A stretch of DNA of 63,824 nt, filler included, from Parasitella parasitica NRRL 2501 (lineage: Eukaryota > Fungi > Mucoromycota), in the NCBI GenBank assembly GCA_025201805.1. It is 15 parts of 15 records of this genome, joined end to end, with 100 filler letters (N's around TTAATTAATTAA, not from the genome) between each part and the next. Parts side by side here need not be neighbours in the genome. Positions count along the whole stretch, not along the records: positions 12,861 to 39,957 come from MU619254.1; 14 more parts are not named here. One strand, 5' to 3'. Position numbers and translations under genes: made by a program. The notes under the pieces are model-generated. The model ran no database searches, was not told where the DNA came from, and saw only the letters and a list, made by a program, of their open reading frames with translations. Positions 14,975 to 49,382 of the stretch are shown here, in pieces; the first letter of the stretch is position 1, and every line of letters starts with the position of its first letter.

Positions 14975-17900
14975 ATTGGGTCAAAGATGCAATTCTTGAA
15001 AGATATCGTCAATCATCTGTACAAAATTCAAATATCAATGATAAATCATGGCGTGCTTGGTGGCATTTAACGTTCGAGTCAGCAGAATCTTGGATAGTTG
15101 TGCTGCTTGTTGGTAGAGTATAAAAGAAAAAACTTATGAGTACCTTTAATATTAAATGGATATATTTATATATATATATATATATATATAGGCGCAGCTA
15201 TTGGACTCATGTCAGCGCTAATCGCCATTGTAACAGACTGGCTGTCAGATATAAAATTAGGCTATTGCTCAAGTGCTTGGTGGTTGAACCAAAAGTTTTG
15301 TTGCTGGGAAATTGAGGATGGTATATAAAAAAAAAAAGAGCAATGTACGAATGCAACACAAATATTTAAACAGTTTTGTTAGGAACTGGAGGCTGTGATG
15401 ACTGGACTACATGGAGCGAATTTGTGCTGCTTGGGCCTAATGTCTACTTTATAAAATGGCTCTTTTATGTCATGTGGGCAGTAAGTGTCTGATTATATCC
15501 TTAGCATTGTGTGTTCATGGTTGGTTAGACTCTATTCGCCACAACTTGTGCGTACCTAGTTAAAAAATATGCGCCTTATGCTGCTGGATCCGGTATTTCA
15601 GAAATCAAATGTATAATTGGTAAGATCTGCAATCACTATTGGTTTGGCTGTATTCAACTTGTGTTATATAGCTGGATTTGTGATGAAAGGGTTTCTGGGT
15701 GGCTGGACACTAGTGATGAAGAGCATCGGCTTGGTAAAATACTAGAAAACAAAACAAAAAAAAAGATCTTGTGTAGCAATCAAGTTAAACCATCAAGTAG
15801 ACAATGGCTGTGGCCTCAAACCTATCTATTGGGAAAGAGGGACCTTCAGTGCACATGGCATGCTGTGTAGGTAATGTTATATCTCGGTGCTTCAACAGGT
15901 TCAAGACAAGTAAGGCTGAAATGAGAGAAATCTTAACCGCATCGAGTGCTGCTGGCGTTGCAGTTGCCTTTGGTTCGCCTATTGGCGGCGTATTGTTTGC
16001 ATTAGAAGAGATGAGCAATCATTTCCCAAATAGAACCATGTGGAAAAGCTTTTTCTGTGCCATGATTGCCACCATTGTGCTTCAGGTAAGTCTACAAACA
16101 AGAGAGACGCAGATATGATTGAAATGAATTACAGTGATTTTGATACTAGGCCATGAATCCGTTTAGAACTGGCAAATTGGTCATGTTTCAAGTAAGTTAC
16201 GACAGAGAATGGCATTTCTTTGAATATCTATTCGTGTTGGTTATTGGGCTGTTTGGCGTAAGTATCGAAGTCTATCCAAGGTTATACAAAATTGACACTT
16301 TGTAGGGTTTGTATGGCGCCTTGGTGATCAAATACAATTTGATTGTTGCTCAATTCAGAAAGAACGCCCTAAAGAACTACCCTATTGCGGAAGCTTCTAT
16401 TCTTGCATTTGTCACAGCTATCCTTGCTTATCCCAATGTGTTTTTAAGAATTGATATGACTGAGATTATGGGTATTCTGTTCAGGGAATGCGAGGGCGCA
16501 GGAACCGAGAATTACTATGGTCTTTGCGAGTAAGCAAATAGGAATGTTTTCCTTTATAGATGAATGCACTAACTTGATGAATCCACAGTAAAAGCGAAAC
16601 TACCCGTATGGTCTTGCTGCTATTTTTGGCCACAGCGCTTCGATGCTTTGGTACTATTATGTCCTATGGCGCTAGAGTTCCTTGTGGTATTTTTGTTCCT
16701 TCTATGGCTATTGGCGCTACTTTTGGGAGAATGATTGGTTTGCTAGTGAAATCTTGGCATGAGTAGGCTATTTTTTTTTTTTTTTTTTTTGGATAGGCAA
16801 AACTCGGTTATTAATAGCGTGGCTACATAGATCTGATCCCGAGTTCTTTCTATTTGCATCCTGTCGACCAGACATGCCAGTAAGATCTGCTTCAACAAAT
16901 GTTTACAATAGTATTGGTAACTGATGATTTACAGTGTATTACGCCTGGCACCTATGCGTTTCTTGGCGCAGCCGCAGCATTATGGTAGGATATGGCACAA
17001 AGCTAAATAGACATCATTAACAATTGTTTTCTATTCTGCAACTAGTGGCGTAATGAGAATTACAGGTAGCTTTGAATGCTGGATGTGGTGTATTATGCTA
17101 ATATCTTGCTGCTAGTATCTGTCGTGGTAATCATGTTTGAACTGACAGGCCAAATCACTTATATCTTGCCCACTATGGTAAGTGAAATATATATATATAT
17201 TTATATGTATATATATATACTCCAGTGTATTGCTTATATCCAGAAAACTATTAGATTGCTTTAATGATTACACGTGCTGTTGGTGGATGGTTTGGATCTG
17301 GTGGCATTGCTGACCGTTATATTCGATTGAACGGATATCCCATTTTGGATAACGACGAGAAGGTATTCAATGTGCCAGGTAAGATATCCACCAAACATAT
17401 GCATACTTCAATGAGATTTGACCCTCAAAAACAGTTTCGCATGTCATGCAGAAAAACATGACATTAATGACGGCAGCTGAGATGACATTCAAAGATATCG
17501 GTAATGACCTATTTCGATAAGAAGTCAAAGAGTAAAAAGCTTACAATACATATGCAATAGAGGATATCTTGGAAAACACAAATTTCCAAGGCTTCCCGGT
17601 TGTGGAGGATTCCAAGTCAATGGTCCTGATCGGATACATTGGTCGCTCTGAACTAATATATCTCATTGGTAAGCAGCTTCTAAAAAAAAAAGATAATATA
17701 ATCACTCAACGTTCGGCCACAACATAGAAAAAGCAAAAGTTAACAAAAAGGCTCACGACGACACCGTATGTCGATTTACACCTGATGGCGAGGAACCTGA
17801 AATTCTCACAAACCTTGGCCTGGATGAAGGCGATGATATAAACGATACAAACAGAGACTTGAGAGGCTCTTCTGATGTACTGGATTTTGGCGCATATATG

Positions 17901-18951: not shown

Positions 18952-19526
18952 GGGTGCCTGCAGTGTAACTGAACGAAACGCTATTTTTAGCTCAAATTGC
19001 CAACGTCAACAGGCATTTAGATATGTCTAAAGCTTACTCTGACAAGGCATCTGACCAAGCAGAAGAGTTGAGACAACTGAATAGATCCATCTTTATCCCT
19101 GTTGTCAGTAATCCATTTGGCAGAAAAGAAAAAAAAAGACGTGAGCTAGAAAGCAGGGAAAAGGACCATGCAGAGCATATGGCAGAGCGTGATAATATTC
19201 GCAAATTTGAATATGAATCAAATGCTCGTGTCCAAGAGGCTACTCGTGCAAACACTCGTCAGTCTTCAGGGCGAAGCGGCCGCTCTGAATCAGATCGCCG
19301 CAGATACCAGTTTGAGGCAGACTCCGAGGACGATGCAGTTGAGGATGAGATAGACGAGAATTTGGATCTTATGTCTGGTGCTATGAGCGGTCTCAAGAAC
19401 ATGGCCTTGGCAATGAATTCTGAGCTGGACAGTCAGAATGAAGCATTAAAGAAAACTATCAACAAGGTGGACCCTTTAAGCAAAAAGTTAATGGCAACCA
19501 CAGATAAGCTAAACAGAACAAAGTAA
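18441..19526 (+). CDS. SEC9: Sec9/SNAP-25-type Qbc-SNARE
   Basis: Motifs KQDSLASTRAAL, LGQQS|QIANV, LRQLNRSIFIP, RRRYQFEADSEDDAVEDEIDENLD and ELDSQN. One intron at 18908-18990. Confidence 0.92.
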
Positions 19527-19637
19527 TTTACTTGATAAAAGAATGCTCGTGTTGATAAATTCATTTTTTTTTTGTTCTCCTTATTGAATGTATCCACTTT
19601 TTGCAGTTTATTTCATCTCGATATAAAAAGCCTTTTA

Positions 19638-22600
19638 CTACTGGCTAAATAATTCAACTTGAAATACAGGCTTAGCAACCTTCAGGTCGACAACGATGCT
19701 GATATAAACACTAGACAGGAACTTTAACGTCTGTTTTGCCTCATCATTATATCCGGCATCGTCGGGCCAAACAATGTCCATCTCATTCAGAATGGGATCA
19801 TAAGCATGATGCCCGCCAGGCAAAGACTGATCGTTCACAATGACCGACAGCTCTATATCATACTCAGGGACATATAATAACAGGGCGTCTGCACTCATCT
19901 TGATTACAAACGATTTTACTGTTATCTTTTTGACCTCTAGATTCAAGCATTGACGATAGATATACGCAGCAGTATAGAGTCTCTTGCTTTCTTGCTCGGC
20001 TGCAGATTTGAGCATTTGGGAAGAGTTGCAATGACGAGCAGTTTTGTCGATCAAGTCAAAGTTCTCGCTATTTTGACCTTCACCCTTTAACGCAGCACTC
20101 AATTGCCTTTGAACATGAATTGATGCGTAATTTCGGATGGGCTCAGTGAATACAGTATAGATAGACGCGCCGGAGCCAGCATGGCGAAACTTTGAAATAT
20201 CAACAGAACCGGCACTGTAGTATCTTTCGGGCGGAATCGCTTTGTGAATGATATGGACAAGTGTTTCCTGCTTTTCAGTTGATGTCTCCTTCTCATGAAC
20301 CAAGTCCAACAAGCCTTTGATTGAATTCGAGTTGGCTGCGTTGTCGAAATAATCCTGGACATTGCTCTATGTATGTATTAATAGAAAAGGTGAGTACAGC
20401 GTTATGCCTATTTTTCAGTTTTAAAACGTGCATTGTTGCTTACCAAAGTTGATAGTTTGGGTGGCTCCTGTCTGCACAGCAAAGCTTGATCTGGGAACCG
20501 ACTCGATATCTTCTGTGCTACTTCTACATTAGCCAATATCAAGAGTTCTTGAAGTAGAACATCGTCATTGGTTTGATTGACTCGGTCAATCTCTTGAGGG
20601 TAGCCGCTCTCTGCCAATTTGAACGATACAGACGATCGTGCAGGACCCACTTCATCTAATCCATCCAAGCGATTTTTTTGCAGTTTTTTACACAGTTTCA
20701 AAATAATCTTTGCCTCGTTTGTCAAGGCATTGAGCTCAACATGCTGTTTTGATTCGACGATTGTTTTGCCTATCCAAGCATTTAATAGTACGCCATTCTC
20801 CGTAAAACGACACAGGACTGAATACGATAGCCTTTGTTTGCCAACACCAAAAGTGCAATGCGACTGAATGAATGACTCGGGGAGGATTGGTAACTTTTTG
20901 TCTACTAACTTCACTGCGCAGCATCGCTCTCGGGCTTCACGATCCAGCGGCGTATCGGCACGAACACAGGCGGCAACGTCAGGTATATGGATCCCAATTT
21001 CGTAAATGCCCTTTCCGGCAGTAGAGGTAACTGAAAAGGCGTACTCCAGGTCTACATTTTTCAAGAAAGAGAAAGAGTGTGTGTGTGTGTGTGTGCGTGT
21101 ATTTTTTTTTTTTTCTACGCGGCATACATACCTTGGCTTGCATCTCCTAATGTAAAAATTTCGACATGTTCTCGAGACAAATCAAAGCGACTTTTCCTCT
21201 CTTCATTTGAAATCTTGGTAGGAACAGAAGCAGCTGCTTTGCAAACTTGCTCTGAAAACTCGACGTCTTTGATGTGATGGTCCGCCATCAGCACGCCCGA
21301 ATGAACGCCTAATTCCCCTACCCATCCAATCTCTTTTTCTATAAATCCAAACGGATGCAGTGACGTTACCGGCCAACGCTGGATTTGACCCTACAAAATA
21401 TAAAGCATGAGTGCGCTTTGTAGGCGTGATAAATTGCTAGTTGATGTACACATTTACCAGGAAGATTCTGTTTTTATATTCCTCGTGATACTTGGTAAAG
21501 TCTGCTGGTGCGTTTTTGATAGGCACGGCAACCAGAGGGAGCCGTTTTTCAACAGGAATGAACCAAATGATTTTTGGGCTTTGCGTCTCCTTTTTATCAC
21601 GGCTGCCGTTATCCAGCGTCATGGCATGAGGCCGATACAATGCAAGCGTTCTATAATTTGTGTGTGTGTGTGTGAGGTGGTGGTGGGGGGGGGGAAAGAA
21701 GTGCTGGTTACTACAATGAATCAAACAATATATGTATATATATATATATATATAGCATTGGACGTTACCCTGAAAACAACATGTTCTTTGGTCTCTCAAG
21801 AACACACACTACCCTGCCGCAGTACTTGGGTCTTGCGCCCATTTCGGATGCAGCATCCAAAAACACATTATTGTCTTCCGGGATGGACGATAATCCGCCA
21901 TTCGAGGTGAGCGACGGAGGGCCATTCAGAGACATGGCCGACAGTCTCCTCGTATAGCGAACCTGTCTCTTGGTCAGCTTTTCATTCATCATTTCGTCGA
22001 CGCTAACCAATTCAACTGCGACTTGATCGCCATTCAAAGCTCTGTTTCTGTTCTTTGACCCAAATATGTAGATGGAGGCATCCAATTCTTCACATTCGAC
22101 ATTTGCTTCTGAGCTATCTTGCAAGTCTACTTTGAGAATGCCTGAATACAATGAATGCGACCGGACTGCAGCCGCTGCTTCAGAGACATTCCAATGCGCA
22201 GGATACAGCAGTTTTCTACTACTGTTCAAAGCACCCTCATGCTGCACATGTTTCTGGTTGGCCACCGCATTCGGCACTATAACGAATCAAATATTTGTTA
22301 TTTGTACGCCTATTTATGCTCAAATTACTAGCGGTGGGTACCTGATTGACTTCGTGTTCTTTTAGGAGGTGTATTCCACAGTGACACGCGTAACTCATTC
22401 TTACTCTCACTATCCTCCTCTTCTTCTAATGGCAGGAAAGAGTTAAAAAAGATTGACTCACCGAGCCTTTGCTGCTGCTGCTGCTGCTGCTGTCCGTTTC
22501 TTTTGCTCCCATGATGATCCAGCTGCTGTTGCTGCCGTCCCATCTTTTGCGGTGGTTCGGAATGTCTACGCACTCGACTCCAAGGACTCTGGTCTGCATG

Positions 22601-23117
22601 TGCAACCAGCGCAGTGGGCGATCCATCATCAGCAGTGTCTTCAGTGTTCGAGGTGATGGTTATCGAAGGCAATCTTTTCATTTCGCCAATGATGTCCACA
22701 AGCGATTGAAAAGCAGGCGACCCATCAGAAATACTAGGCTTGTGCTTTTGCTTGAATCTGTCAGCAGCACTTGAGCTTCTGCGTCTATGTCTGTTGTCGT
22801 CGCTGCTACTGCGATCAGCTGCAGTGAAGAACGGATCGCTTTCCGCAGATGGTTGCGCCTGCTCCTCCTGTCCTTCTTGGGCAGCTGCTGATGACCTTCT
22901 TCGGCTACCTCTTCGCCTCCTTCTGCTGTTGGGGCTTTTTCTTTGCTCTGGTTCAAGACGCATGTCGTCTGCTCCTGATAATTGATTGGCATTCTCAACG
23001 GCCAACGGATGCTACATGTGCAAAATTTAAAGAGTGAGTGCCCCTTTTGCATTGGCCGACATTCAGACTTACGTGCAAGTGGTTTATCTCGTGAATTTGA
23101 ACTTGTCCCCTTTGCAT
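19638..23117 (-). CDS. Dis3L2/Ssd1-like RNB-domain protein, probably catalytically inactive
   Basis: Cold-shock domains (IYIFGSKNRNRALNGDQVAVEL; IWFIPVEKRLP; WPVTSLHPFG), RNB domain (IGIHIPDV, LDREARER, LLILANVEVA, FTEPIRNY), S1-like C-terminus and low-complexity N-terminus. Confidence 0.88.
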
Positions 23118-23163
23118 TTCAATTGTATGTATTATGCAAGCAAAAGAGAAGGAAATGATACTC

Positions 23164-23218
<55 letters not shown>

Positions 23219-23681
23219 CCGAAGAGTCACGACGTAACAATGCACTTGGTAATAATGGTAATGTTTAATCTCCCTCGCATGAAATTATGCGCCATATTGT
23301 GCGAGCTTATTTACGGTTATTTGAGACTCTGAAATAAAAGGGGGGCGGAGGCGGGCGGGAGGGGCACTGCTGCCAAACAAGTGATAAATTACGAACTGTA
23401 CATCTCTAAATGAGTTGCTTTGAACCACGACAAATTTGAGTGATTATTATGTAGGAAGAAATCTCCCTTTCAATGCCCAAAGCCCAGCCCATCCTGTAAG
23501 CCGACTGCAAATGCCTATTGAAACAAAGAGCATGCGTATAAAAAGAGAAACGACAAAGGCGCTTTTAGCAATAATGATAAAGATATGGCAAAAGATGGAA
23601 GGTGAATTTTATATACGATATGTGTGTGATAAGGGCTAAAGACAGTAAAGAGGGCGAGAGGGACAACTATTTTATAATGGA

Positions 23682-23734
23682 TTAGAATGTGGTGAATTTA
23701 CCATCTGGCTGAGCTAGATGTTGCTGCTGTTGTC

Positions 23735-23775
<41 letters not shown>

Positions 23776-26104
23776 GTGTGGTGGGCTGGCAATGCAGGTA
23801 TAGCAAAGACGTGTTCATACTTGATTTTGGGAGACAATGACGATGTTGGTGTCTTTGGTGATGTGGGAGCAGAGGTTGGTGATTTAAGTCCATCTTCAGC
23901 TACTCCTGTTGCTGCCGCCGCCGCTGCTGCCTTGGCTTCTTTGGCAGCTTCTTTGGCTTCCTTTGCTTCCTTTGCTGCTGTTTGCTTCGCCGCTAGAGCT
24001 GCTGCTTTTTGGGCTTTCTTTTTCTCTTCCCTTTCACGCTTTTCTTCGGCGGCGCGCTTTTTCTTATCAAGTGCTTCTTGTTTCTTGGCTTCAGCTTGTG
24101 CCTTCATGTCTAGACGAACAGAAAGAAATCAGAATAACAAGATAAAAATATGAGCATTTTACAAATACCATCCTGTGCTTTTTTTAACGCCGTAGCAGTA
24201 TTTTGTTCAATGGCAGTTGCAGCGTTAAAGTCAAGCATTTGCGTCTTTTGAACTCTTTGCAGGCCTCTGGGCAGATTGCTTCCTGACACTTATGAAAAGA
24301 GTTGGGCAGATTAATAAATCTGAATCTATCTTCTACAGAAAAAAAAAACAAACTTACTTGAATTGGTTGTGCTGGATCTTTGCATAGGTCTTTGACCTGA
24401 CGCTGGTTTGTTGGATTTAATGAAAAGTCCACCTCCACCTCCACTAGCACCAGCACCACCAGAAGCAGGCCTTGTAGGTCTAGCAGGACGTTTGGTGAAC
24501 AACGATGACGAGTTACTAGCAGCATTGGCGCCAACTGATCCCATAGATAAGCTCCTAGGGGGAGCGACACCCGGTCTTCCAGAGCCAGGAAGAGCAATTG
24601 AGTTGTTTACAAGACTATTACGATGCGGCGGAAATGGAAAGGGATTTGGCGTGGAGGATGTGGGAGAGGCGACACGCTTTGCCTTGCTACTTAATTCTGC
24701 ACCTGCTCTCTTTTGTGCCACGGCTTGAGCTTGTTGTGCTTCTGCCAGTTCGGAACGCTCTTCTGATTCAATCAACTCGCTGAAACGAGCATGTCTTGAT
24801 TCTTTGGAGATAATATCATTAGCGTTTGTTGTTAATGTAAAGTGCTGAGCATTTGTTGATTTGTAATCAGCAAAAGTCGATGAAGCATGTCGAGGCGTAA
24901 TTCTTGCGTTATGTTGTAATAACATGTCTTCAGGCGAATGAAAGTTGATGCCAGTTTTTTCCACTACGAAATATTCATGTTAATTGACTATTTTCGCATG
25001 TCTACTTTTGAACTTACCAGTAGAGCCTATGCTTTGCAAGAGAGTTCTAAAGTCGTGAGACCATTCATCGACGTTTAAATCAAAGAATTGAGATTTTGGA
25101 TAATCCTTGAGAATATGAGCAGTCGTTTGTACAAAGTCATCCGAGTCATGCAAAGAGATTTCGATAATCTAATAAAAAGATATAATTTGTTAGTTTGATG
25201 TTTGTCGGGTGAATCTCCTTGTGAAATGTATCTGTGGTTTGATGTGTCATGAAAATGCAGAAACTCGAGCGCTTCATTCTCAAACACGCAACTCCTACAT
25301 GGAGTTCTGTGCTTGATCGGAAGTTGTCTATCCTTTCCTCCCTCACTATTTTCAAACGAAGCCACATAGAATATAATAATTGATAGCAAATAGATATATT
25401 TTTTTTTTAAAGTTTTTACTGTGAAGACAAAAATGATAAAAACTCTAAACTACAATACAAATATTTTGTTTACCCATTAAACCAACACCATCCCTCTGGA
25501 TTTTGCAGGCAAAATCACCACTCAAGACGACCACGCACGGAAATTAAATATCCGTTGATGTTTGTATTTTTTTTTTTTCTTTGCTGCATCGAAAAGAAAT
25601 TTGACAATGCAACAAGTAAAACAACAAAATCTCATCGTTTGATGCACGAAATTATCAACATATTGGAGCTTTGTATAAGAGAAAAAGGAATTCATGCTTA
25701 TATTCATGCTCCAATACCAATGAATACATGATTATAAACAGAAACCCAATTTTCACCTCCATATATTGTTAATTCGCAGTAAAACCTGATAGACTCACAA
25801 CACACAATGGGACAGCAAACATCATTTCACAACGTTCAGGAGCAAAAAAGGAGAATTAAAAAAGAGACGTTACCTTATTCAGATTATCACCAAGCAACAT
25901 CAAGTCGCCTTTCCTCATACACATTGTCGCCAATAACACTCCTTGCTTTACCCTACTGTCAAATTGGCTAAAGAAAGGTGTGATCATTGTGACAACATCC
26001 TCAGTTAAGCCTTTCGCAATTGAAGCGCTATTCCAGCCAGGCGAGCTGACCTCGGCTGTCAGCCATGAGCGAATCCCTTCAGCAGTGTTTCTTTCGTAAG
26101 CCAT
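23682..26104 (-). CDS. NELFA: Negative elongation factor A (NELF-A) homologue, multi-exon
   Basis: Spliced N-terminus WLTAEVSSPGWNSASIAKGLTEDVV..F..FDSRVKQGVLLA...IIEISLHDSDDFVQTTAHILKDYP..FFDLN...QHFTL aligns by eye with the animal NELF-A N-terminal domain (WL...W...SIASLLT...F..LSSAVKLKLLLG...IIQLASLDSDPWV..VADILKSFP...HFQL). 3' end is uncertain. Confidence 0.8.
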
Positions 26105-26850
26105 TCTTGAGTGATTTTTGATTGTAGATTAAAATGAAAATAAAATTTTTTGCAGATGAAAAAAGATGATGAGGAAAATAAATTTTTTTCCAACCCTATT
26201 TATACCTTTTTTTTTCAATTTTAAACGACGAATAATTTTCCAAAGAGTCACAAATGTAACAACTAAAAACGGACTAGCGTGCTTTCGAAGCATAATGTAA
26301 CAAAAGGTCCTTCCCAAGCTAATGACAGCAAACCATATCAGATCACGTAATAAATCCAACATTTTCACAGCTTATACATGGCATTTATGACAATGTTAAA
26401 AGCTAAATCCACTGCAGCAGCCCTGTAGATACGCTAGCAATATTAAATAATCATATTAGCCACAACATTTCTGCTGATAGCAAATATTCCGTGAATTTCT
26501 TTGGTTGTCTATACTCGCAAGATTGAACAGAATTTTTAGAGGAAGAAACATTCGATTCCTCTGTTTATTTGCTACACATTAATAGACTACTTATTATACA
26601 AGTTATTGTGATATTGTCAAAATTGTATATTTAAAGTTCAAAAGAAGATCTCGTGCCATCATGAAATAGAAACCTGGAAACTTGCAAAAAAAAACCACAA
26701 GGCTATTGTGAAAAGAAAATATAATTACTGCAGATAAGAACCTAGGCTATCACATGGTACTGGTATCAATAAAATTAAAATCAATGTTTATTTGTCATAC
26801 TGAGCCTATTAAAGTGACGAAACTTGACAAGCGTGATGCTGCGTGTAATT

Positions 26851-28269
26851 TTACTCAACCGAGTCAAACCCTTTAATGTAACATACTTGATCCGTATCGC
26901 TGAACCAGTCAAACCCCTTCTTCTTGGCCTGTTCGAAAGTATACAAATCATGCGCATGGCTTGTCCAATGCGCGATATCGTAGGTGATGGAGGCACATTC
27001 CTTCATGTACACATCGCGAATGGTTTCCTCGTCTTCTTCTAACGCAGCATGTGGATACTGCGTCAAAGCCAAGTTGTGGATAATGACATTTTTCAAGGAG
27101 CTTCCACAGGTGTCGATAAGGGTGGGGATGAAATCAGACGAAACTACAAGCCGCGAGGCCGAGATATACAGCAACTGTAGCAGTGGCAATTGCTTTGCCA
27201 AGGCCACCCAAGCAGCTGAGGGCGCATGGCATGGCAGCTTATCGCACTCTTTGGTGACCGGATAGAACCTTTTGAATCCTAATGACAAGGTGCATAATCG
27301 CGACAATCGAGAGAGACTGGTGAGAGCTTGCTGTACATGGCAAGGATTTAATTCATGCAGCAGTATGGACAGCTTTTCTAGATGAGGCGAAGAGAGTGTC
27401 ATTTGTGTCAGTAGCGAAGATGTGATGGAATCTGTAGTTAATGCGAGCTGAGAAAGGTTATTGACAGCAAGCGATTGCAGCAATTTTGGTGGTATAGCAG
27501 AAACTTGGGTATCTTGGTAATGAAATGGATGCAGAAATGGCTGGTTTGTGGTGTCTATTAAATGGCTGTTTGTTTTCAGCTTTTTTGGTGGTTCTATCAA
27601 AACTTGCTGCAATAGGATGAATGTTGGTTTGAGCGTGGTTATTAGCTTTTCTAGCGTCGATTCTTTGATGGTACAGTTGGTCAGTGTGAGGGATGCTAAA
27701 GGCGGGCGGTGCTCTACTAGCGATAAAAAATCATTGAACGTATCGCGGCATTGATTCAGGTAAAGCTGGTTGAGCTGTGGACAATACTCTGCAAAATAAC
27801 GTAGTCCGTAGTGTTCTGATCTAGCCAACGGATGGAAATCTATTCTCAAAGCACGCAAATTGCACACTAGCTGAGCCATCAGTTTTGAGTTGAGCAGGTC
27901 GAAATGAGGGCCGCTGGTTAGATCTCGACTGAGAGAACGTACATAGTCGCCCAGATAGTAGTCTTCCTGAAACAATGCTTTTTTCGACAGAATATCAGTG
28001 GCCATTTGCACTGCTGCGCTTGGGCTCTTTTTATCGTCCTGACGAGGCAGGATAAACTCTTTGTCTTTCCACAAAAACGGCGCACACAAGATGTACAGCC
28101 TTCTGCAGCACAGCGCAATCGACTTTAAATGAACGTAGCTGTGCTCTGGATAGGACCATCCCAGAAACTGGTGCTTCTCATCGTTCCTCTCTTCTATTAA
28201 CGACGACAAATCGACAATTCGTTCCAACACTTCGCTTGGCAGTTTTAATAGATACGATTCGTTCGTCAT
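26851..28269 (-). CDS. F-box / leucine-rich-repeat (RNI-like) protein, intronless, 472 aa
   Basis: F-box LLKLPSEVLERI...SIALCCRRLY...PFLWK followed by LxxLxL repeats (CPQLNQLYL, LASLTL, PHLEKLSI). Confidence 0.8.
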   Translation of the reverse strand: MTNESYLLKLPSEVLERIVDLSSLIEERNDEKHQFLGWSYPEHSYVHLKSIALCCRRLYILCAPFLWKDKEFILPRQDDKKSPSAAVQMATDILSKKALFQEDYYLGDYVRSLSRDLTSGPHFDLLNSKLMAQLVCNLRALRIDFHPLARSEHYGLRYFAEYCPQLNQLYLNQCRDTFNDFLSLVEHRPPLASLTLTNCTIKESTLEKLITTLKPTFILLQQVLIEPPKKLKTNSHLIDTTNQPFLHPFHYQDTQVSAIPPKLLQSLAVNNLSQLALTTDSITSSLLTQMTLSSPHLEKLSILLHELNPCHVQQALTSLSRLSRLCTLSLGFKRFYPVTKECDKLPCHAPSAAWVALAKQLPLLQLLYISASRLVVSSDFIPTLIDTCGSSLKNVIIHNLALTQYPHAALEEDEETIRDVYMKECASITYDIAHWTSHAHDLYTFEQAKKKGFDWFSDTDQVCYIKGFDSVE

Positions 28270-28435
28270 GTCTTATTAGAGAGAATGGGAGGGAGAGAGA
28301 GAAAGAGTAAAAGAGTAAAAAAAAAGCAAAGAAAAAAGGTGTCTATTTATGTGTGTTGCAATCTATCGGTGGTCGTGAGAATATCAAAAAGGAGGGGTAA
28401 AAAAAACAATAAACACATGCTGCTGACTGAATAAA

Positions 28436-28682
28436 TTATGCGATAAATGGCATTAACGTAGGTGTTTTTGCTCTGTATGCGGTCCATTCCTGCCCAAAGA
28501 AACGATGCAATGTGTGTTCTTCATACTGGATGCGCTCAGAAAAGAACTTTTGAAGCCAGTAGACGAACAGACCGAGACAGACTGGGTTGATCAGTAGTAC
28601 CTGAACGCCGATGGCCCACCAATAAAAGCCAAAGTATGAGGGATGTCTCATCAGACTGTTATAAAGCTGTTAAAGGAGACAC

Positions 28683-28719
<37 letters not shown>

Positions 28720-29385
28720 CAAGTATACACATTAACATACCTGTACACGCCATGCTGAACCAGAACATGATCATGTTCCTTGTAATCTGCAATGTGATGA
28801 GAAAAGTTGTGTCTACAGGAAAACATGGCAATGGTACGACATGATTGACCGGTGATCACCAGAATCAGGCCAATGCAATTGATCCAACTGAACGTTTTGT
28901 ACGAAGGAAAGAAATAATACTCGATCAAAAACTCTAGCAAGGCGGCAGCGTGGGCCGCATGGTAATGTGCACTGTGGTTAATGAGATAGGCTACGCAAAA
29001 TAGTGAGTGAAACCCTCGTACGAGATAAAAACGAGACCATCTGGCGCTTACAGTCGAGGGACAGTTTGTCAGCATTGAATAAAGCGGTTGCAATGTATTC
29101 CAAAAAGTGGAACAGCGAAAGAGCAGCAAGAAAGATGCCAAACTGAGGTATTTTGGAGTCGCTTAGGACGGCAAACATGATTCCTGCACTGCACACCATG
29201 CCTAAAATAAACCCGTACACTGAAATGTTCTGTGGGCTGTTCTTTCCGTCAAAGATGTGGATTTCGTCCTTTGTCGAATGCTCTTTGGAAGCATACGGCT
29301 TTCCTGGTGGTAGCAGTCGGATATTGGGGTCTGCGTCTGCTTTGTCTCCAAGAACACGATGAATATTCAAGCTGGGTGTGCTCAT
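28436..29385 (-). CDS. STE14: Protein-S-isoprenylcysteine O-methyltransferase
   Basis: Motifs FHFLEY..TA, GQ..R.IAM...NFSH, HVLVQHGVY|..MRHPSYFGFYWW and RIQYEE. Two introns. Confidence 0.95.
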
Positions 29386-29570
29386 CTTGTACAAGAAAAA
29401 AGAGAGAAAGGAAGAGGGAGAACAGACACAATGAAAATCCCTCTCCAGACATGTAATTTAGCCCAATCACGTGTAGAGTGCAACTGGGACACATGCAGAC
29501 GGCATTTCGGGAAGGCAAGGTGGTGTACGCTTCCCTTTTTCCTCTCTTTTATCGCCCCCAAAAGCCAGAC

Positions 29571-30608
29571 ATGTACAATTCAACTCGACTCAAGGTGCAG
29601 CTTAAATTATGCATTAACCGTCTCAAGATGCTGCAAGCCAAGAAAACCTCGCTTAACCAGCAAAATCGAAGAGAAATTGGGACGCTATTAGAAAAGAAAA
29701 GAGAAGAGAGTGCTCGTGTAAGGGTCGAGCATATCATTCGCGATGATCTTTTGATCGAGACATTGGAGACTTTGGAATTGTATTGCGATCTACTGTTGGC
29801 TCGCTTTGGATTACTAGAAACATACAAGTAAAGTAGCTTTGACACTATCCACGGCATGAACGTGAATATTCATTTTAACAACATACACAAAAAAAAAAAG
29901 GACCTGTGATCCAAGCATTCTTGAAGCTGTACAAACCATCATCTGGGCTACACCCCGTGTTAGCGAAGTGAAAGAGCTTGGCTTGGTATGCGTATCTCTA
30001 ATACAAAATCCCTGCGTGTTTCCTTACTAACAAGCTGCTGCTACTAGGTGAGAGATCAATTAGCATCCAAATACGGAAAAGAGTTTATGATGCAGGCATT
30101 GGAAAATGAAGACGAAAACGTGAATCCTAAAGTAAGAGGGGGGCAGTACAGCGTGTGACCTGGGGTTTGTATTGATGTGATATTTGCTCTAGATAATCAT
30201 GAAACTTCAAGTGAATGCTCCTGATGCATTTCTCGTCGAGCGCTATTTGGAAGAAATCGCTCGAACCTATGACATTAAATGGAAATCAAACCTTATCGAG
30301 CATGAAGAAGAGGAGGAAGAGGACATTGACAGCAACGGAGAGGGAGGAGGAGGACAAGCCGAGGTATGTGCTCTCTCTCATTCAAAATCATGCAAATCTA
30401 ATTCTACTGCCCATAGCTACTGCCTCCTTTACAGGCCAATGCCGTGGACGAACCCCAGTTGGATTTGCCACAAATTCCCTCTGTTTCGCCGTTAGGAAAG
30501 AGCAATATGGCACCGCAACAGCCACTATCCAGACCCGGGGCCGATGCAGACGATCCCAATGATTTTGATGCTTTAGCAAGACGCCTTGATGCTTTGAAGC
30601 GAAAGTAA
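29571..30608 (+). CDS. IST1: Ist1, ESCRT-III-associated regulator of Vps4
   Basis: Motifs LKVQLKLCINRLKMLQ, ARVRVEHIIRDD, ELYCDLLLARFG and YLEEIA, with C-terminal MIM1 DFDALARRLDALKRK. Four introns. Confidence 0.93.
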
Positions 30609-35224: not shown

Positions 35225-35694
35225 ATGAATTACAATAGCAATGGCAATAGTGTATTTAGATGCGACCGGATATTTTGCTGTTTTGGTAACAAAGGAAGGC
35301 AGATGGGCGTCTATTTTGCGGGTATTCTGGTATATTATCGTGTATTTCCGTTGGCTGGTAAAAACTAACAACGCTGCAGTTTGCTTTGGGCTGGTGGGCA
35401 TTTATTGACGGATTAGCAGCTCTTTGGCGTCTGAAGGACCGTAAGATCGCTCCGGGAATAGAAGATTGGGCGCCTGGTATTATCACAACTTTTGGAATGA
35501 TAATGTAAATTGTAGCGCGTATTCTGCTGCTTGTGCAACATTGCTAATGCTGCATGTTATCCCCATAGTGTGAGTTTGATCGATAAAGAGGCATTAAAAG
35601 GACATGGATATGACGGTGAGCAGTATATCTGGAGGGCAAGATTGTTCTTATTTTTCGGATTCGCTTTCATGGCAGGAGGATTCGCAGGATCTGT

Positions 35695-35731
<37 letters not shown>

Positions 35732-35941
35732 TTGCGTAAAACGACATGGCAAAAAACACTGACTAGTAGGTTATAGGCTGTTTTAGTCACAAAATACATA
35801 TATGATGAAACTTTAGATCTCGATAATATTTATTTGGGTATCACGGATGTAGTCCAAAGCTCTTTGATTATGCTCAGTACAGGTATATTGTGGTTGGTTC
35901 AGAGCTCGGAATCAGACCCTCAATATCACGCAATCTATTAA
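35225..35941 (+). CDS. VPS68: Vacuolar protein sorting protein Vps68 (TMEM50 family)
   Basis: Motifs GVYFAGIL|FALGWWAFID, EDWAPGI..TFGMI|.SLIDK and WRARLFLFFGFAFMAGGFAGS. Three introns. Confidence 0.9.
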
Positions 35942-40057: not shown

Positions 40058-40638
40058 AACGTAACACCTCTGTCTGAAACAATGTCGGCAGGGAATCCGT
40101 AATGGCAAAATACATGTCGTAACAATAGATCACAAGTTCCTTCCGCATCGATGGTATTGTAAGTTGGTAGGAATATGGCCATCTTTGTAAATCTGTCCAC
40201 AATAACACAAATAGCTGAATAACCATCTAATGGCGGCAATTCTGTAATAAAGTCCATTGAGATACATATCCAAGGGTTTTCAGGTATCTGTAATGGTTGT
40301 AACAAACCGTATGGTTTATGATGGGCATTTTTGTTTCGTAGACAAGTATCGCAGCCTGTTACGTATCGCTTTACGTATGATCTCAAGTCAGGCCAGTAAT
40401 ACTCTCTTGCTACTCGTTCGTATGTTTTCGTAATACCGAAATGACCAGCTGTTGGGCTGTCATGGCATTGTTCTAAAATGGTTTTCTTTAGGTCTTCATT
40501 GTCGGGAATACAAATGGATTTATTTTTGTAGAATAAAAGACCATCTTGCAGATGATAATCGATGTTTTCCTTTTTGTTTTTGTTGTTTCCGAAATCTTTT
40601 ATCATGGGTCCAAATGTCTTGTCTGTAAGTAGATGCAT
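40058..40638 (-). mobile_element. Ty3/gypsy integrase fragment
   Basis: HHCC zinc finger (HDSPTAGHFG...CDTC), PW..ISMDFIT.LP, IVDRFTK and IVSDRG. Confidence 0.93.
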
Positions 40639-40655
40639 TTTAATTGTTTGTACTA

Positions 40656-41153
40656 CACCATGGCCAACTTGTGTGATAAAATCCTAACTACTGGTGATGC
40701 TTTAGCAACTAGGTGTCCAAAATAAGCACCAGTGATTAGATTTTACACACAAAATGTAGAACTCAATCACTCAAACATCGTAAGCTTCAATTAGAACTCC
40801 CTTTTAGTTTTTCGCGAACCATTTTCCACTGACGTTATGCTCAAAAAATTGCGATCAGACGTTTATTCATCAGTAAACTTTAAAAACAATCACTAAAAAT
40901 AGAATAAGTGATTGATTCATCACCAAGCATTTAAGAGTATCACTGTGAATAAGAAGAGTGATTAATTCGTCACCAAGAACTCAAAAAAATCACTGAAAAG
41001 GTAACACCACAAGGCAATAATAAAAGATGTTCTTCAGTTAATAGGAGATTTTCTTCATATACATACTACATCACATAAAAATAACTAGTAGAATACTTGA
41101 TATTTTGCACAGAATGCAATTGATCCATGTTGATACAGTTATTATTAATGTAT
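40656..41153 (+). mobile_element. Non-coding repeat family M starting CACCATGGCC (probable DNA-transposon end)
   Basis: About 500 bp of high similarity to 49381-50335. It truncates the integrase ORF, and its start resembles CACTATGGCC. Confidence 0.65.
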
Positions 41154-43120: not shown

Positions 43121-44048
43121 CATAGGTCATGTTATCCTTGAATTGAGAATGATCAATTGTTCTTCCCTCATAAGAGAACACGCGGAAAGAGCTGAAAGCA
43201 TTTGCCTCACAAATACCCAAGAAGATACCAAAAAAGCGCATTTCCCATCTTTCCGTCTTGATGATATCGTGGTATGAGATCTTGTTGTCTCTCAAGTTGT
43301 TAGCAGCATCAACGGAATCTAATGTTGGGGTAATCAGTTACTATATTCATGCAAGAGTGTTTCAACTTTTCACTTAATTTTATGAGTCTCATACTCATGT
43401 GCAACCTCTGGTCTTTGAATAGTTATTTTTTGGCCCCCAGACGCAACATAGCTTCTTTGATCAATCAGCCTGGTGGTACTGCCTGCAAGAGGAAATGAAG
43501 GCCTTGACCTTCTTGTCGCGATAGGCGCAAGTGAACATCTTGCCACTATCAGCACCTTTTTTCATTTTGTGTAGTGGCTTCCAGGCTCTTCCTCCTCTAC
43601 TTGATCAACGATGTCAGTATTGGACATTCCACGAGGCCAGTATCTACGCTTGCTAACTTGCATGATCGCGTACAGCAGGCCAAGATCCGACAACATTGAT
43701 ATCATATCGGGAGACCCGAACCAAAAGTCAGCGATCACTGTTCTACCACTTCCAAAGCAAGGCTTGGTAAGGCGTTTGACAGTTGCAGTCAACTTCTTCA
43801 TGCCAGGATCTTCATCATACTCCTTACTTCTTGGATCACTGACAGTATCCATACGCAAGATACAATAAGTATGATGATCTGCTAATGTCTCCAACTCCTG
43901 TCTGATGGGATGTGGCTTTCGGGAAACCTTCTTCAAGTTGGGCGTCCCAACACCCAACCACTGGTTCATTGACTCATCAATGACCAAGTACTTTCCAGGA
44001 GTAACACAGTCAGCCATCTTGTCATTGAAGGCCTTGATGGGAGCACGG

Positions 44049-44561
44049 TGTTTAGAATAACAAAATATAGCCAGAAAAATACAATTAGAACTGAATATAT
44101 TTATTTTGCTATTCCAAGATTGAATGAAGATTTAAACTAGTGTATGTTTTGAAGGTATTTATAGTTATTTGACAGTGCCGCAGCAATAGGACCATGATCT
44201 AGGATGAGGGATAATTGGGTACACCTTGAACCAATCCCTAGGAGCTTGGTGGATAAGAGTTTCCGAGTTACCAGTAAGACAAGAGCATAGATACGTATAA
44301 AGGATAGAATGTTGTTCCTAGTAGCTTTGATGGAAGAACATTCATCAGGATTAAACACCGACCTCAGGAACCAAATGTCATAGGATATCACCACTTTGTA
44401 CTGGGATAAAGATTCGCCATTCAATGTTACCACTTATGTCTCTTTGCCATGTCTAAATAAAGTCATTCCATTCTACTACGCATTTCTACTCATGCTCGCT
44501 TTATGATGTATTATACAGAGTATAATACATTACCGCTAAGATTTGATCTGTATCCTAAACA
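44049..44561. mobile_element. Solo-LTR-like element family E (513 bp)
   Basis: TGTTTAG...CTAAACA with TSD CACGG. Removing it fuses the two piggyBac ORFs in frame. Confidence 0.9.
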
Positions 44562-45368
44562 CACGGATCTGATACAAGGGATCATTGATTTGTTTTTCCC
44601 CAGTAGGAATTTCAAAAACATGCATATGCATGATGTCCCTGAATCTTTTAAAAGACATGTATTGGCAAAAGTCCACGTTCATGGTGAAATGGCTATGCCC
44701 CAACTTCCAGTATGCCTTGAGGTTTGAGTGAGCAAGCACTGTCATTATGGTCAAGAGTGCCAGCCACATCATATACTCGTTGAAGGTAATGTCTCTCCAT
44801 GCGGGGTTGACATCTTTTGCATGATGGTTAGTGTTCCTGATGATTTCATGGAAGTACTCTTGAGGTAAGAAAAACAGGAAATAGTCCAAAGGAGAAGCAT
44901 CTCTAAAGCCTTCCATGTTAAGCTTGGCTCTTGTTTGCTGGTAGCTTTCATAGCAGAGTCTCCTATCGACAAAGACTTCACCATTGCTCCATCCATCACC
45001 GGGAGTCAAATCAATCTCCTCCTCGTCCTCTGATCCAGAAGGTACAGCATCATCCAAAAGATCCTCTGCCTCTTCGAATGCAGGAACAGGTACGTCAATT
45101 GGTGTAGTATTAGTATCAATCATTTTTACAGGACCGACATACTTAACACAATCTGCTTTGAGTGTCACCGTGATGGCAGGTGCTTCATCGAGAATCACAT
45201 CATACGCGATGGAGTTTCCGATTATTGAGCGGGCAACAGTCTTTCCCTTGAAGTTCAAACAAGGTGTGTTCCAATCATACTTATTCATAAGAATAGAATT
45301 TGCGTCTGAATTCGTGATAAAACGCTTGTTCACGGATACAAATACGTTTACATCTAATCGATTGTTAG

Positions 45369-45579
45369 TGTTATGTCAAAAGTCTGATAAAATAAATCTG
45401 CCAAAGAATTACACCCTTATTCATAATACATCTCTCGATGTATTATATACACATTCATTACACTAGGGTTCTACTGTCTAGCTGCATAATGTAAATCATG
45501 ACTACCCATGATTTACTGTAAGACCCTGGGACTGATCTGAGATCCTGATGTGAGACTTTGCCATGTTATTGATATAACA
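45369..45579 (-). mobile_element. Family D copy D3 (211 bp)
   Basis: TSD GTTAG. Absent from the paralogous piggyBac copy at ~53745. Confidence 0.93.
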
Positions 45580-46644: not shown

Positions 46645-49382
46645 GTTTGTGATTATCGTGCTTTGAATGCTAAAACCATTGCTCAGCGTGTTCCTTTGCC
46701 TCGTATTGATGAATGCTTAGAACAACTACATGGTGTTACCTTTATGAGTTCCATCGATCTTATTAATAGTTTTTGGCAACAAAGATTGACACCTTCTGAT
46801 TCTCTTAAAAGTGCTATAAATACTAGATATGGGCAATTTTCTTGGTCTGTCATGGCAATGGGATTGAAAAACTCCGGGGCCAGGTGGATGTACTTAATGA
46901 ACGATGTTTTGAAGGAATACATTGATGTTTTTGTGATTTGCTATATCGATGACTGTCTAATCTATACAAAAGGGAATGATATTGAATTACACAAGAAGAA
47001 TTTACATATGGTTTTCAAGAAGTTGAAAGAAGCTGGTTTGGTGGTCTCTCGCTCAAAATGTAAATTTAATCGTAAAGAAATTACATTTTTGGGTCATGAT
47101 ATTATTGCTGGTCAAGGTATCAAACCTTCTCAACAAAAAGTCAAGGCTATTGTCTCTTGGCCTGTACCTCAAACTGTTCAAGATGTTCGTAAATTTATGG
47201 GTCTCTGTCAATACTATTCTAGTTATATGGCCAACTTTGCTAACGTTGCTGCTTGTATAACTGATTTGACAAAGGGCGTGGGTCCTAAGAATCGCAAGAT
47301 TGAATGGTCAGAGGCTTGTCAAAAGGCATTTGATACTATTAAATCATTGATTGTTTCTTCTCCTGTGTTATTGATGCCTGATATGTCTCGCTCCTTTCGT
47401 ATTGAATGTAATGCTAGTGACTATGCTGTTGGTGCTGTTTTATTACAACAAGATCCTAATTCTGGTGATGATTGGAAGCCTGTAGCCTTTATTTCAAAGA
47501 AGCTGTCAGCTGCTGAAAGAAATTACCCTACTCAAGAACGTGAATTGTTGGCTATCTTATTTGCTTGTAAAACCTGGCGTTGTTTTGTTGAAGGTTCTAT
47601 ATATGAAGTCTACACTGATCATCGTCCTTTGCAATATTACAAATCGTCTAACAAAGTTTCTCCTCGTTTGGTTCGTTGGATGCAAGACCTTGAAATGTAT
47701 CAACCTACTTTGGTTTACAAAAAGGGTGTTGATAATATTGCGCCTGATTTGTTGAGTCGTCGTGAAGGTCCTGATTGCTTGCCTGATCCTTTGTCGATGG
47801 AACCTGAATTTTTCGTATGAACTGTCAACTGCTATATTGAACAAGGTTTTACAGCCTTCTGATACTTCGTTATTAACTGATCCGTGTCAAGATTGGCCTA
47901 TTTTTTTCAAGAAGAAGAAAGCAGACTGGCCTGAGAAATGGCGTGTTCAATTAGAGAAGGAGGAGTCCAATTTTGAAGTAATTGATAATGTTGTTTGGCG
48001 TTTAAACCCTACCCCTGATAGTAGTAAAGAGGCTTCCAGGTTAAAATTTATTACTTTTGCTCGTCGTGCGGATCTTATTGAAGATTTCCATCGTGGATTT
48101 GGTCATTCTGGTCAACTTACTGTATACCATTTAATGAAGCAACGTGTGTGGTGGCCTTCAATGCGTAAAGACATAAATTATTGGTTGAAAACTTGTCCTG
48201 AATGTCAATTGCATTCTCGTAATGAAAAGAAGGTTCATCATGCTCCAATGAAGCCTTTAGAGGTTCCTGCTCCCTTTGCTCGTTGGCACATAGACTTTAT
48301 TGGTGAATTGCCTACTACTAGTAATGGAAATCGTTGGATTATCATGGCTGTTGATTATGCGACAAATTGGCCTATTGCTCGTGCTCTCAAATCTGCCACT
48401 GCTGATGAAATAGTGAAATTTCTGTATGAAGAAATTGTGATGAAATTTGGTTGTCCTGTGGAGCTTGTCTCTGATCGTGGTGCAAATTTTTTATCAAAAA
48501 TTCTCAAACAATACATGCGTAAGATTCGGTCAAAACATATGTTTACATCGGCTTTTCATCCAAGAACTAATTCGAAGTGTGAACGGTTAAATCAAACATT
48601 TAAACATATGTTGACTAAATATGTAAAAGGCTTGGTGCATTCGTGGGATGACTATGTGGATTCATCATTGTTCTCGTGTAGAATTCGAAAGCATGCCACG
48701 ACTGGATATAGTCCATTCTATTTGGTTTATGGTCAAGAACCGGTGTTGCCTGGTGATTCTCGTCGTCCCTTTATGGATCCTTTAACTGAGGAAGATCCTG
48801 AATTGATTGCTGAAGATATACTTGCTCGAATTCGTGATCTGAAAGAAAAGAGATTCGAAGCCAAAGAAAACATGATGTTACAAGCTCAAAAGGATAAAGA
48901 ACGTTGGGATGCTGCTATTAAGAACAACAAGACTCAAACTTTTGCTGTGGGCGATTATGTTATGTTGAGGCATGAATCCAAGAAAGGCCTAGAGTTTAAT
49001 TGGATGGGTCCGTATCTGGTTGTGAAAACAAACTTGGACTACAACATCTACCAGATTAGAGAAATAGAAGGAAACGTTTACAATTCTTGCGTTCATACGG
49101 ATCGCCTTCATTCTGTTCAATATGATGGCGCTAAACCTCAAAAATCTTGGTATATTCCTCGTATTGCTAGAGCAAAATAGCAATTTTTTTTTTTTTTTTC
49201 TCTACCTGAACTTTTTTTTTTGGGAGGAAGGTAGTGTCAGTTGCTCACAGACTTTGTGCGTAACCATTTTAATTAGTATATAAATATCAATTGAATTCAA
49301 AAGAATAAACAGTATCTATCTTTGATCTGCCATAATGTAGGATAGGAGATCATGAAAGTGTACTTCAATTAATGACTGGACA
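46645..49382 (+). mobile_element. Ty3/gypsy retrotransposon 3' part: RT, RNase H, integrase, PPT, short 3' LTR
   Basis: Motifs YIDD, ECNASDYAVGAVL, HHCC, WHIDFIG, LVSDRG, KCER and WMGPY. Frameshift at ~47810. PPT GGGAGGAAGGTAG at 49222-49234, then TGTCAG...GGACA (49235-49382) containing TATA and AATAAA. Confidence 0.93.

What the first reader, a model, noticed from the sequence alone, without database searches (positions are those of the whole stretch)
23682..26104. NELF-A homologue in a fungus: possible promoter-proximal pausing machinery
Seen: the ORF track shows only fragments, but splicing 26104-25874 to 25168-25018 to ~24965 onward yields a domain matching animal NELF-A (W..SIA..LT, VK...LL, II....DSD..V...A.ILK..P, HF.L). 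It is followed by a disordered tentacle-like region with an 'MLDF' motif, a charged coiled coil and polyQ. Established: NELF (A, B, C/D, E) stabilises paused Pol II in animals and is absent from S. cerevisiae and S. pombe. Inference: this early-diverging fungus may keep a NELF complex and regulated pausing. I could not see an animal-type C-terminal domain. Homologues may already be in databases, but I know of no functional study in such fungi.
Basis: partly seen in the sequence, partly recalled or inferred. Interest (0 to 1): 0.78.

Follow-up and report, generated by a model that had tools for sequence, protein, structure and literature searches.

The report
Tail-less fungal NELF-A with retained intron
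This mould gene encodes a true relative of NELF-A, part of the factor that stalls RNA polymerase II near gene starts in animals; it likely works in a slimmed-down three-part complex, lacks the animal tail domain, and its unusually long first intron was unspliced in the one RNA sample available.

Summary
Confirmed: a five-exon minus-strand gene (26104-23682, 511 aa) of a Mucoraceae mould near Parasitella. It is a NELF-A orthologue: Pfam NELF-A_N above cut-off in an 85%-identical orthologue, profile E about 1e-20 against human NELF-A, and NELF-A the top five fold matches. NELF-C-contact residues are kept (W24; W89 as F). Partners could not be searched in this genome, but a published table has the NELF-C/D and NELF-B domains in 51 and 53 of 56 zygomycetes. 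Databases already label such genes, and this scan found full-length NELF-A in three other fungi.

Most likely an A-B-C/D complex acting on early-elongating Pol II; pausing itself is untested.

The parts
25874..26104 (-). [quoted passage not shown]
   Evidence: 74/77 identical to Parasitella; RNA contig starts at 26142
25169..25873 (-). Intron 1, 705 nt, phase 0, GT-AG, branch point CTAAC at 25193; unspliced in the only RNA assembly; retention gives a stop after 82 aa
   Evidence: other spliced introns are 49-89 nt (26 of 26)
25220..25831 (-). Predicted long-range helices in intron 1 (25831-25795 pairing with 25252-25220) that would leave about 93 nt outside the folded block
   Evidence: z -4.1 and -3.8, below all 24 control stretches (lowest -2.71)
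25018..25168 (-). Exon 2 (aa 78-127): rest of the N-terminal domain, D85-S-D-D-F89-V
24358..24963 (-). Exon 3 (aa 128-329): NELF-C-wrapping extended region (F135-H136-x-P-E139; H168-F169-x-L171; R184), then the disordered S/A/G/P-rich basic tentacle
24169..24288 (-). Exon 4 (aa 330-369): conserved tentacle island P-R-G...Q346-M-L-D-F350 (24271-24227), candidate RPB2-binding segment
   Evidence: 39/40 identical to Parasitella; motif in 20 of 20 homologues examined; match to human 253-266 not significant
23682..24109 (-). Exon 5 (aa 370-511): K/E/A-rich helix with a KKKR basic patch, SP/TP-rich stretch, polyQ (23774-23721), stop; no NELF-A C-terminal domain
   Evidence: RNA contig covers it only to about 23919

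Best explanation
This gene encodes the NELF-A subunit of a Mucorales fungus, which likely assembles with NELF-C/D and NELF-B into a three-subunit complex and would restrain RNA polymerase II early in elongation through a short tentacle motif. Shown: orthology, the N-terminal fold, conserved NELF-C-contact positions, a conserved island in exon 4, and no C-terminal domain. Inferred: residues 1-190 wrap around NELF-C/D as in the human AC lobe; the disordered basic linker tethers the QMLDF segment, which would dock on the RPB2 protrusion like human residues 253-266; SP/TP sites could be CDK9-type release sites. Without the C-terminal domain the complex would lack the human NELF-A/INTS12 contact, so any pause is expected to be weaker or differently coupled to Integrator. 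Full-length protein needs removal of the long first intron, which seems slow or limiting.
For: Pfam NELF-A_N 44.7 bits, cut-off 27, for P0001; 11 of 12 aligned homologues hit the family, the twelfth lacks its N-terminus. Fungal profile against human NELF-A E 1e-19 to 3e-21 over human residues 11-191. The model's top five matches are NELF-A chains by Foldseek (E 7e-7 to 9e-6, next 0.09) and by VIA-align (Z 13.5-15.4, rmsd 3.4-4.0 over 123-129 residues, next Z 7.5). Human W24 and W89 insert into NELF-C (PMC4940160, passages): W24 is in register in 13 of 15 rows, W89 is W in 9 and F in 6 including the window; K65, E139, H168, F169 and R184 are invariant in 15 of 15. TH1 in 51 and COBRA1 in 53 of 56 zygomycete proteomes, 26 of them Mucorales (PMC10079182 supplement). 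Human 253-266 binds the RPB2 protrusion (PMC12359043, passage) and lines up by eye with the fungal island at V254, L257, D258, I259, S260 (human letters). Human NELF lacking the C-terminal domain still assembles and binds Pol II (bioRxiv 10.64898/2026.06.30.735463, section 9).
Against: NELF-B and NELF-C/D were not seen in this genome, which is not held. The motif match is not significant: 3.2 bits, about 5e-4 to 7e-4 per position, roughly 0.15-0.2 over a tentacle; a motif profile found nothing in the PDB at E 10, and HMMER left the human segment as an insertion. Chivu et al. found the Pol II-binding HDAg-like region only in animals and Capsaspora and NELF-E only in animals (section 6). Hydra has all four subunits without apparent pausing (PMC10591015, passage). 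In human cells one point mutation in the C-terminal domain mimics NELF loss in nascent-RNA profiles, so a version without it may not hold a pause. The only RNA assembly shows intron 1 unspliced.
Confidence: 0.6

Rival explanations
1. The A-B-C/D complex exists but does not make a focal promoter-proximal pause; it serves an older job on nascent RNA (cap-complex-linked processing or early termination), and the exon 4 island binds another partner.
For: No C-terminal domain; NELF-E reported only in animals; Hydra has NELF without apparent pausing and NELF-B has pausing-independent roles; motif match to the RPB2-binding segment not significant.
Against: Species with only NELF-B and C/D already show higher pausing indices than species without NELF; the island is the most conserved stretch outside the N-terminal domain and sits in a disordered tentacle ahead of a basic helix, as in human.
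Confidence: 0.3
2. Orphan or decaying subunit: the partners are lost in this species and intron 1 retention means little full-length protein is made.
For: Partners not shown in this genome; intron 1 unspliced in the single assembly; W89 replaced by F; C-terminal domain lost.
Against: Frame intact over five exons; exons 1 and 4 are 74/77 and 39/40 identical to Parasitella against 85% overall; orthologues in 15 named genera; partner domains in most Mucorales.
Confidence: 0.05
3. On intron 1 only: retention is a regulated switch that sets NELF-A dose (stop after 82 aa, decay or nuclear detention), with the folded intron as the control element.
For: Only intron seen unspliced, against 26 spliced ones; 8 to 14 times their length; folding z below 24 of 24 controls and stronger on the sense strand (-3.8 against -1.9); position conserved across Mucoromycota exon 1 fragments; the Pilaira model is split at this intron and the Mucor fragilis model starts in exon 2.
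Against: One run, contigs only, which drop minor forms; no other long intron was available as a control; no intron sequence conservation detected from read-through peptides (0 of 7 tests above the shuffle maximum); no Rfam match above chance; at least 12 homologue models join the two exons; a long intron may simply be slow to splice or hard to annotate, and the helix may help splicing instead.
Confidence: 0.25

Closest known systems
Human NELF-A (WHSC2); PDB 5L3X_A, 6GML_U, 8UHA_U, 8UHD_U, 9J0N_U; Pfam PF23553
   Same: N-terminal helical domain and extended region (24-27% identity, same fold), W24, basic pair at 64-65, H-F-x-L strand, long disordered tentacle, an L-D-hydrophobic segment followed by a basic helix.
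   Different: F for W89; longer linker before the island (346 against 255); long K/E/A helix and polyQ; no C-terminal domain (human 431-528).
NELF-A of Glomeromycotina and Mortierellomycotina (Funneliformis P0023, Gryganskiella P0061, the latter named 'Negative elongation factor A' in GenBank)
   Same: Same N-terminal domain, same tentacle island (Q-I-L-D-I), same intron 1 position in their exon 1 fragments.
   Different: They keep a C-terminal domain that aligns with human 431-522 (weak second domains), although human R453 is not in register in either; the window and 12 of 12 Mucorales and Umbelopsis models lack it.
Mucoraceae orthologues: Parasitella parasitica CEP06905, Mucor lusitanicus OAD07247, Mucor ambiguus GAN04664 (UniRef 'NELF-A N-terminal domain-containing protein')
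   Same: Identical architecture end to end, 72-85% identity, same last residues.
   Different: Only linker and repeat lengths; no functional study found.
Dictyostelium and Chlorella NELF-A-like proteins (PMC4940160)
   Same: Non-animal NELF-A with a conserved AC-lobe region at 25-28% identity to human.
   Different: Reported to diverge outside the core; the tentacle island was not compared here.

Membership tests
NELF-A (PF23553) | NELF-A_N profile above the curated cut-off | tested here: met
   44.7 bits against 27 for the 85%-identical spliced orthologue; window exons 1 and 2 hit consecutive parts, 18.2 and 17.5 bits each
NELF-A (PF23553) | N-terminal helical fold | tested here: met
   Top five matches NELF-A by Foldseek and VIA-align, Z 13.5-15.4 against 7.5 next; model of P0001, pLDDT 77-91 over residues 1-110
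NELF-A (PF23553) | NELF-C-contact residues W24, W89 and the extended region 111-182 | tested here: met
   W24 kept, W89 conservatively F, extended region aligns to human 191 with H-F-x-L kept
NELF-A (PF23553) | Tentacle segment that binds the RPB2 protrusion (human 253-266) | tested here: inconclusive
   Conserved island in 20 of 20 homologues; human segment scores 3.2 bits, about 0.15-0.2 by chance over a tentacle; no PDB hit
Animal-type full-length NELF-A | C-terminal domain (human 431-528, binds INTS12 PHD) | tested here: not met
   Profile from three fungal CTDs (two distinct): no hit under E 1 among 3199 six-frame peptides of the window, none in Mucorales or Umbelopsis proteins; only about 550 nt separate the stop from the next transcript
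NELF complex | NELF-B and NELF-C/D genes in the same genome | not testable with these tools
   No genome held; indirect: COBRA1 53 of 56 and TH1 51 of 56 zygomycetes
NELF complex | NELF-E and HEXIM | not testable with these tools
   No genome held; HEXIM has no row in that supplement, whose lowest counts seen are 20 of 56; Chivu et al. restrict NELF-E to animals
NELF complex | NELF-dependent promoter-proximal pause | not testable with these tools
   Needs PRO-seq; none found for Mucorales

The most novel reading that the evidence does not exclude
Mucorales run a minimal NELF in which the A subunit keeps an ancient RPB2-binding tentacle motif, older than the animal-only origin now proposed, but has shed the Integrator-contacting C-terminal domain while Integrator genes persist, and its dose is set by feedback through a long, folded, retained first intron. 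Mucor lusitanicus would then be a genetically tractable non-animal model in which pausing is naturally uncoupled from the NELF-A/INTS12 checkpoint.
Probability: 0.15. Interest if true: 0.75.

Novelty: new variant of a known kind. Interest (0 to 1): 0.45.

Why it matters
Papers describe NELF as metazoan-specific (PMC12462365, passage), count NELF-A in one fungus (PMC10591015 supplement) or limit its Pol II-binding region to animals and Capsaspora (Chivu et al.). Orthologues in 15 genera of Mucoromycota show that NELF-A was in the fungal ancestor and was trimmed in steps: full length in Glomeromycotina and Mortierellomycotina, tail-less in Mucorales and Umbelopsis, absent in the model yeasts. 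[quoted passage not shown] The gene itself is already labelled in databases, so the value lies in the variant and the test.

Tried and rejected
Own-genome search for NELF-B, C/D, E, HEXIM: no genome held. Related genomic loci to compare intron 1: two metagenome scans gave nothing (35 pattern matches, none confirmed; 0 matches). Exon 1 alone against the PDB: no hit at E 10. Motif profile against the PDB: none; a truncated Gryganskiella query did not bring out the motif either. Three of the 24 hits (P0005, P0008, P0013) are unrelated repeats and were dropped. Rfam on 23000-27000: four matches, all far below gathering scores, so no evidence for a hosted snoRNA. Intron conservation from back-translated read-through tails: 0 of 7 above shuffle maxima. 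U12-type intron 1: rejected, ends are GTAACG and TTAG. A sixth exon with the C-terminal domain: rejected; a possible donor at 23701 leads to no such sequence. Transposon-type terminal repeats in intron 1: only a 10-nt perfect pair. Atlas search with the Funneliformis C-terminal domain for a stand-alone Mucorales version: no usable hit, which shows nothing. No run on record as RNA was listed; X1 is treated as RNA because it shows 26 canonical spliced joints. No complex prediction was run, as no partner sequence was in hand. Supplements of Chivu et al. could not be read and may list Mucoromycota NELF-A; the primary structure paper on the tentacle is not held.

Full report
Observation. The minus-strand sequence gives a five-exon model: 26104-25874, 25168-25018, 24963-24358, 24288-24169, 24109-23682, with four GT-AG introns of 705, 54, 69 and 59 nt and an open frame of 511 aa. 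Exon 1 retrieved a Parasitella parasitica protein, P0001, of 508 aa that is 85% identical over the whole model. A tree of the first 200 residues of 15 proteins puts the window in a well-supported group with Parasitella and two Mucor species (100/99); Parasitella is in Mucoraceae, Mucorales. No whole genome is held.

Identity. Exons 1 and 2 hit consecutive parts of Pfam NELF-A_N weakly; the spliced orthologue scores 44.7 bits against a cut-off of 27 and matches human NELF-A at E 1e-5. Profiles of 12 and 10 fungal homologues match human NELF-A at E 1e-19 to 3e-21. An AlphaFold2 model of P0001 (mean pLDDT 60; 77-91 over residues 1-110; disordered over most of 215-335; one helix 350-436) has five NELF-A chains as its best matches by Foldseek and VIA-align (Z 13.5-15.4, next 7.5). 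In the human AC lobe W24 and W89 insert into NELF-C and residues 111-182 wrap around it (PMC4940160, passages). The window has W24 and F89; W24 is in register in 13 of 15 rows, position 89 is W in 9 and F in 6, and K65, E139, H168, F169 and R184 are invariant in 15 of 15. Orthology is therefore firm.

Distribution. The all-protein search with exon 1 gave 24 hits, of which 3 are unrelated repeats. With, named homologues come from 15 genera of Mucorales, Umbelopsis, Glomeromycotina and Mortierellomycotina. GenBank already calls two of them 'Negative elongation factor A' (Apophysomyces, Gryganskiella) and UniRef labels several as NELF-A N-terminal domain proteins. Earlier notes of this scan report full-length NELF-A in Spizellomyces, Basidiobolus and Dimargaris (unchecked).

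Partners. They could not be searched in this genome. Supplementary Table 4 of PMC10079182 (rows and header seen) lists TH1 (NELF-C/D) in 51, COBRA1 (NELF-B) in 53 and INTS2 in 48 of 56 zygomycete proteomes, at a loose threshold (E 1e-3, over 50% overlap). I count 26 Mucorales in that set, so at least 21, 23 and 18 of them carry these domains. HEXIM has no row. PMC10591015 (passages and supplement) counts NELF-B in 26 fungi, NELF-C/D in 31 and NELF-A in 1, and states that NELF-A is not found in such organisms; the homologues above contradict that.

C-terminal domain. Funneliformis and Gryganskiella proteins align with human residues 431-522 as weak second domains with the FEMN-type signature. 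A profile from them finds nothing under E 1 in 3199 six-frame peptides of the window and nothing in the other proteins held; 12 of 12 Mucorales and Umbelopsis models lack it, one of which (Thamnidium) is visibly cut at intron 4. The profile is thin (two distinct sequences), and a separate gene elsewhere is not excluded. In humans this domain binds the INTS12 PHD finger; its deletion leaves NELF assembled on Pol II, while the R453A change leaves the pause site in place but mimics NELF loss in nascent RNA (bioRxiv 10.64898/2026.06.30.735463: abstract, passages, section 9). R453 is not in register in either fungal domain, so the INTS12 link is unproven even there.

Tentacle island. Exon 4 is 39/40 identical to Parasitella and holds the best-conserved block outside the N-terminal domain; the Q/R-M/I-L/I/V-D-F/I core is in 20 of 20 homologues examined. 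Human residues 253-266 were modelled on the RPB2 protrusion (PMC12359043, passage citing the structure paper). Their letters, printed, match the island by eye at V254, L257, D258, I259 and S260. The test was not passed: 3.2 bits, 5e-4 to 7e-4 per position, about 0.15-0.2 over a tentacle, no PDB hit for the motif profile. It stays a hypothesis, but it bears on the claim of Chivu et al. (bioRxiv 10.1101/2023.02.19.529146: passages and section 6) that the Pol II-binding region is confined to animals and Capsaspora. Their supplements could not be read.

RNA. One run, X1, holds the region (its kind is a guess). Laid on 19.6 kb of the window it shows 26 canonical joints of 49-89 nt (one further 2-nt skip ignored, two joints dropped by the tool at repeats), including introns 2-4 at the predicted bases, with zero depth in 23170-23903. 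Intron 1 is not skipped: one contig runs from 26142 to 25018 without gaps, then splices normally, and ends near 23919. Contigs drop minor forms, so a spliced form is not excluded; from my recollection of how such assemblers prune graphs, an unbroken path suggests that intron-containing reads dominate. There was no other long intron as a control. Retention would stop the frame after 82 aa, the next in-frame ATG being M141. The intron is real in evolutionary terms: the domain is continuous across it, exon 1 is 74/77 identical to Parasitella, and at least 12 homologue models join the exons. It folds more stably than shuffles (z -4.1, 0 of 20; z -3.8 sense and -1.9 antisense), below all 24 equal-length control stretches (lowest -2.71), with predicted helices joining intron bases 43-79 to 622-654, which would shorten the effective intron to about 93 nt. 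No Rfam family and no cross-species conservation were found. The Pilaira model is split at this intron and the Mucor fragilis model starts in exon 2, which fits retention or plain annotation trouble.

Mechanism. Most likely (0.6): an A-B-C/D complex that binds early-elongating Pol II, with the island as the polymerase-binding tentacle and no C-terminal Integrator contact. Rivals: a complex with no focal pause (0.3); an orphan or decaying subunit (0.05). For intron 1, slow splicing or assembly choice is likelier than a regulated switch (0.25).

Literature. I found no study of NELF or pausing in Mucoromycota: one search gave 0 papers; one search listed 25 of 46, none on these fungi by title or abstract start; one search was swamped by an unrelated drug name; two searches listed 30 of 2,283 and 25 of 7,358 with no occurrence of the key term, so they are weak. 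Most subscription journals are not in the library. Also read in passages: PMC3371697 (NELF absent from the two yeasts), PMC9068813, PMC10482750, PMC13232147, PMC12462365; PMC11258239 supplements gave nothing.

Verdict. A real and already labelled NELF-A orthologue; a new variant through loss of the C-terminal domain, with an unexplained long, folded, retained first intron. Interest 0.45.

Noticed in passing
window 19500-23135 (-): Downstream neighbour is an RNB-domain gene with cold-shock domains (Dis3L2/Ssd1-like), spliced in X1, with an intron at 23012-23072 upstream of its first ATG.
   Followed up: partly
window 26770-29400 (-): An ICMT gene and a one-exon F-box/LRR-like ORF (26851-28272) lie on a single RNA contig, so their untranslated regions overlap or abut.
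   Followed up: no
window 23167-23218: Run of 52 A (minus strand) just upstream of the RNB gene's transcript start.
   Followed up: no
window 23701 (-): A donor-like GTAAAT lies 20 nt before the stop; the last six residues could be intron read-through, but the same ending is in Parasitella, Mucor and Choanephora. Not covered by RNA.
   Followed up: partly
window 15801-17900, 29460-30500, 35516-35773, 57905-58351: Other genes by Pfam: CLC chloride channel with CBS, Ist1, UPF0220, tyrosyl-DNA phosphodiesterase.
   Followed up: no
window 40060-40683, 43565-45375, 46645-49177, 60252-62177: Retrotransposon pol fragments (RT, RNase H, integrase) and a DDE_Tnp_1_7 transposase in two frames.
   Followed up: no
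PMC10079182 supplementary Table 4: Integrator-related domains are common in zygomycetes: INTS2 in 48 of 56, DUF2151 in 21 of 56 and only in Mucoromycota; I saw no discussion of this in the passages read.
   Followed up: no
Atlas look-alikes of P0001: An unnamed oomycete cluster (0.89) and a diatom cluster (0.85, 17% with NELF-A_N) resemble the fungal protein; leads only.
   Followed up: no
P0004 and P0034 (Pilaira anomala); P0028 (Mucor fragilis): Public gene models are split at intron 1 or start in exon 2, which may explain low counts of fungal NELF-A in ortholog databases.
   Followed up: partly
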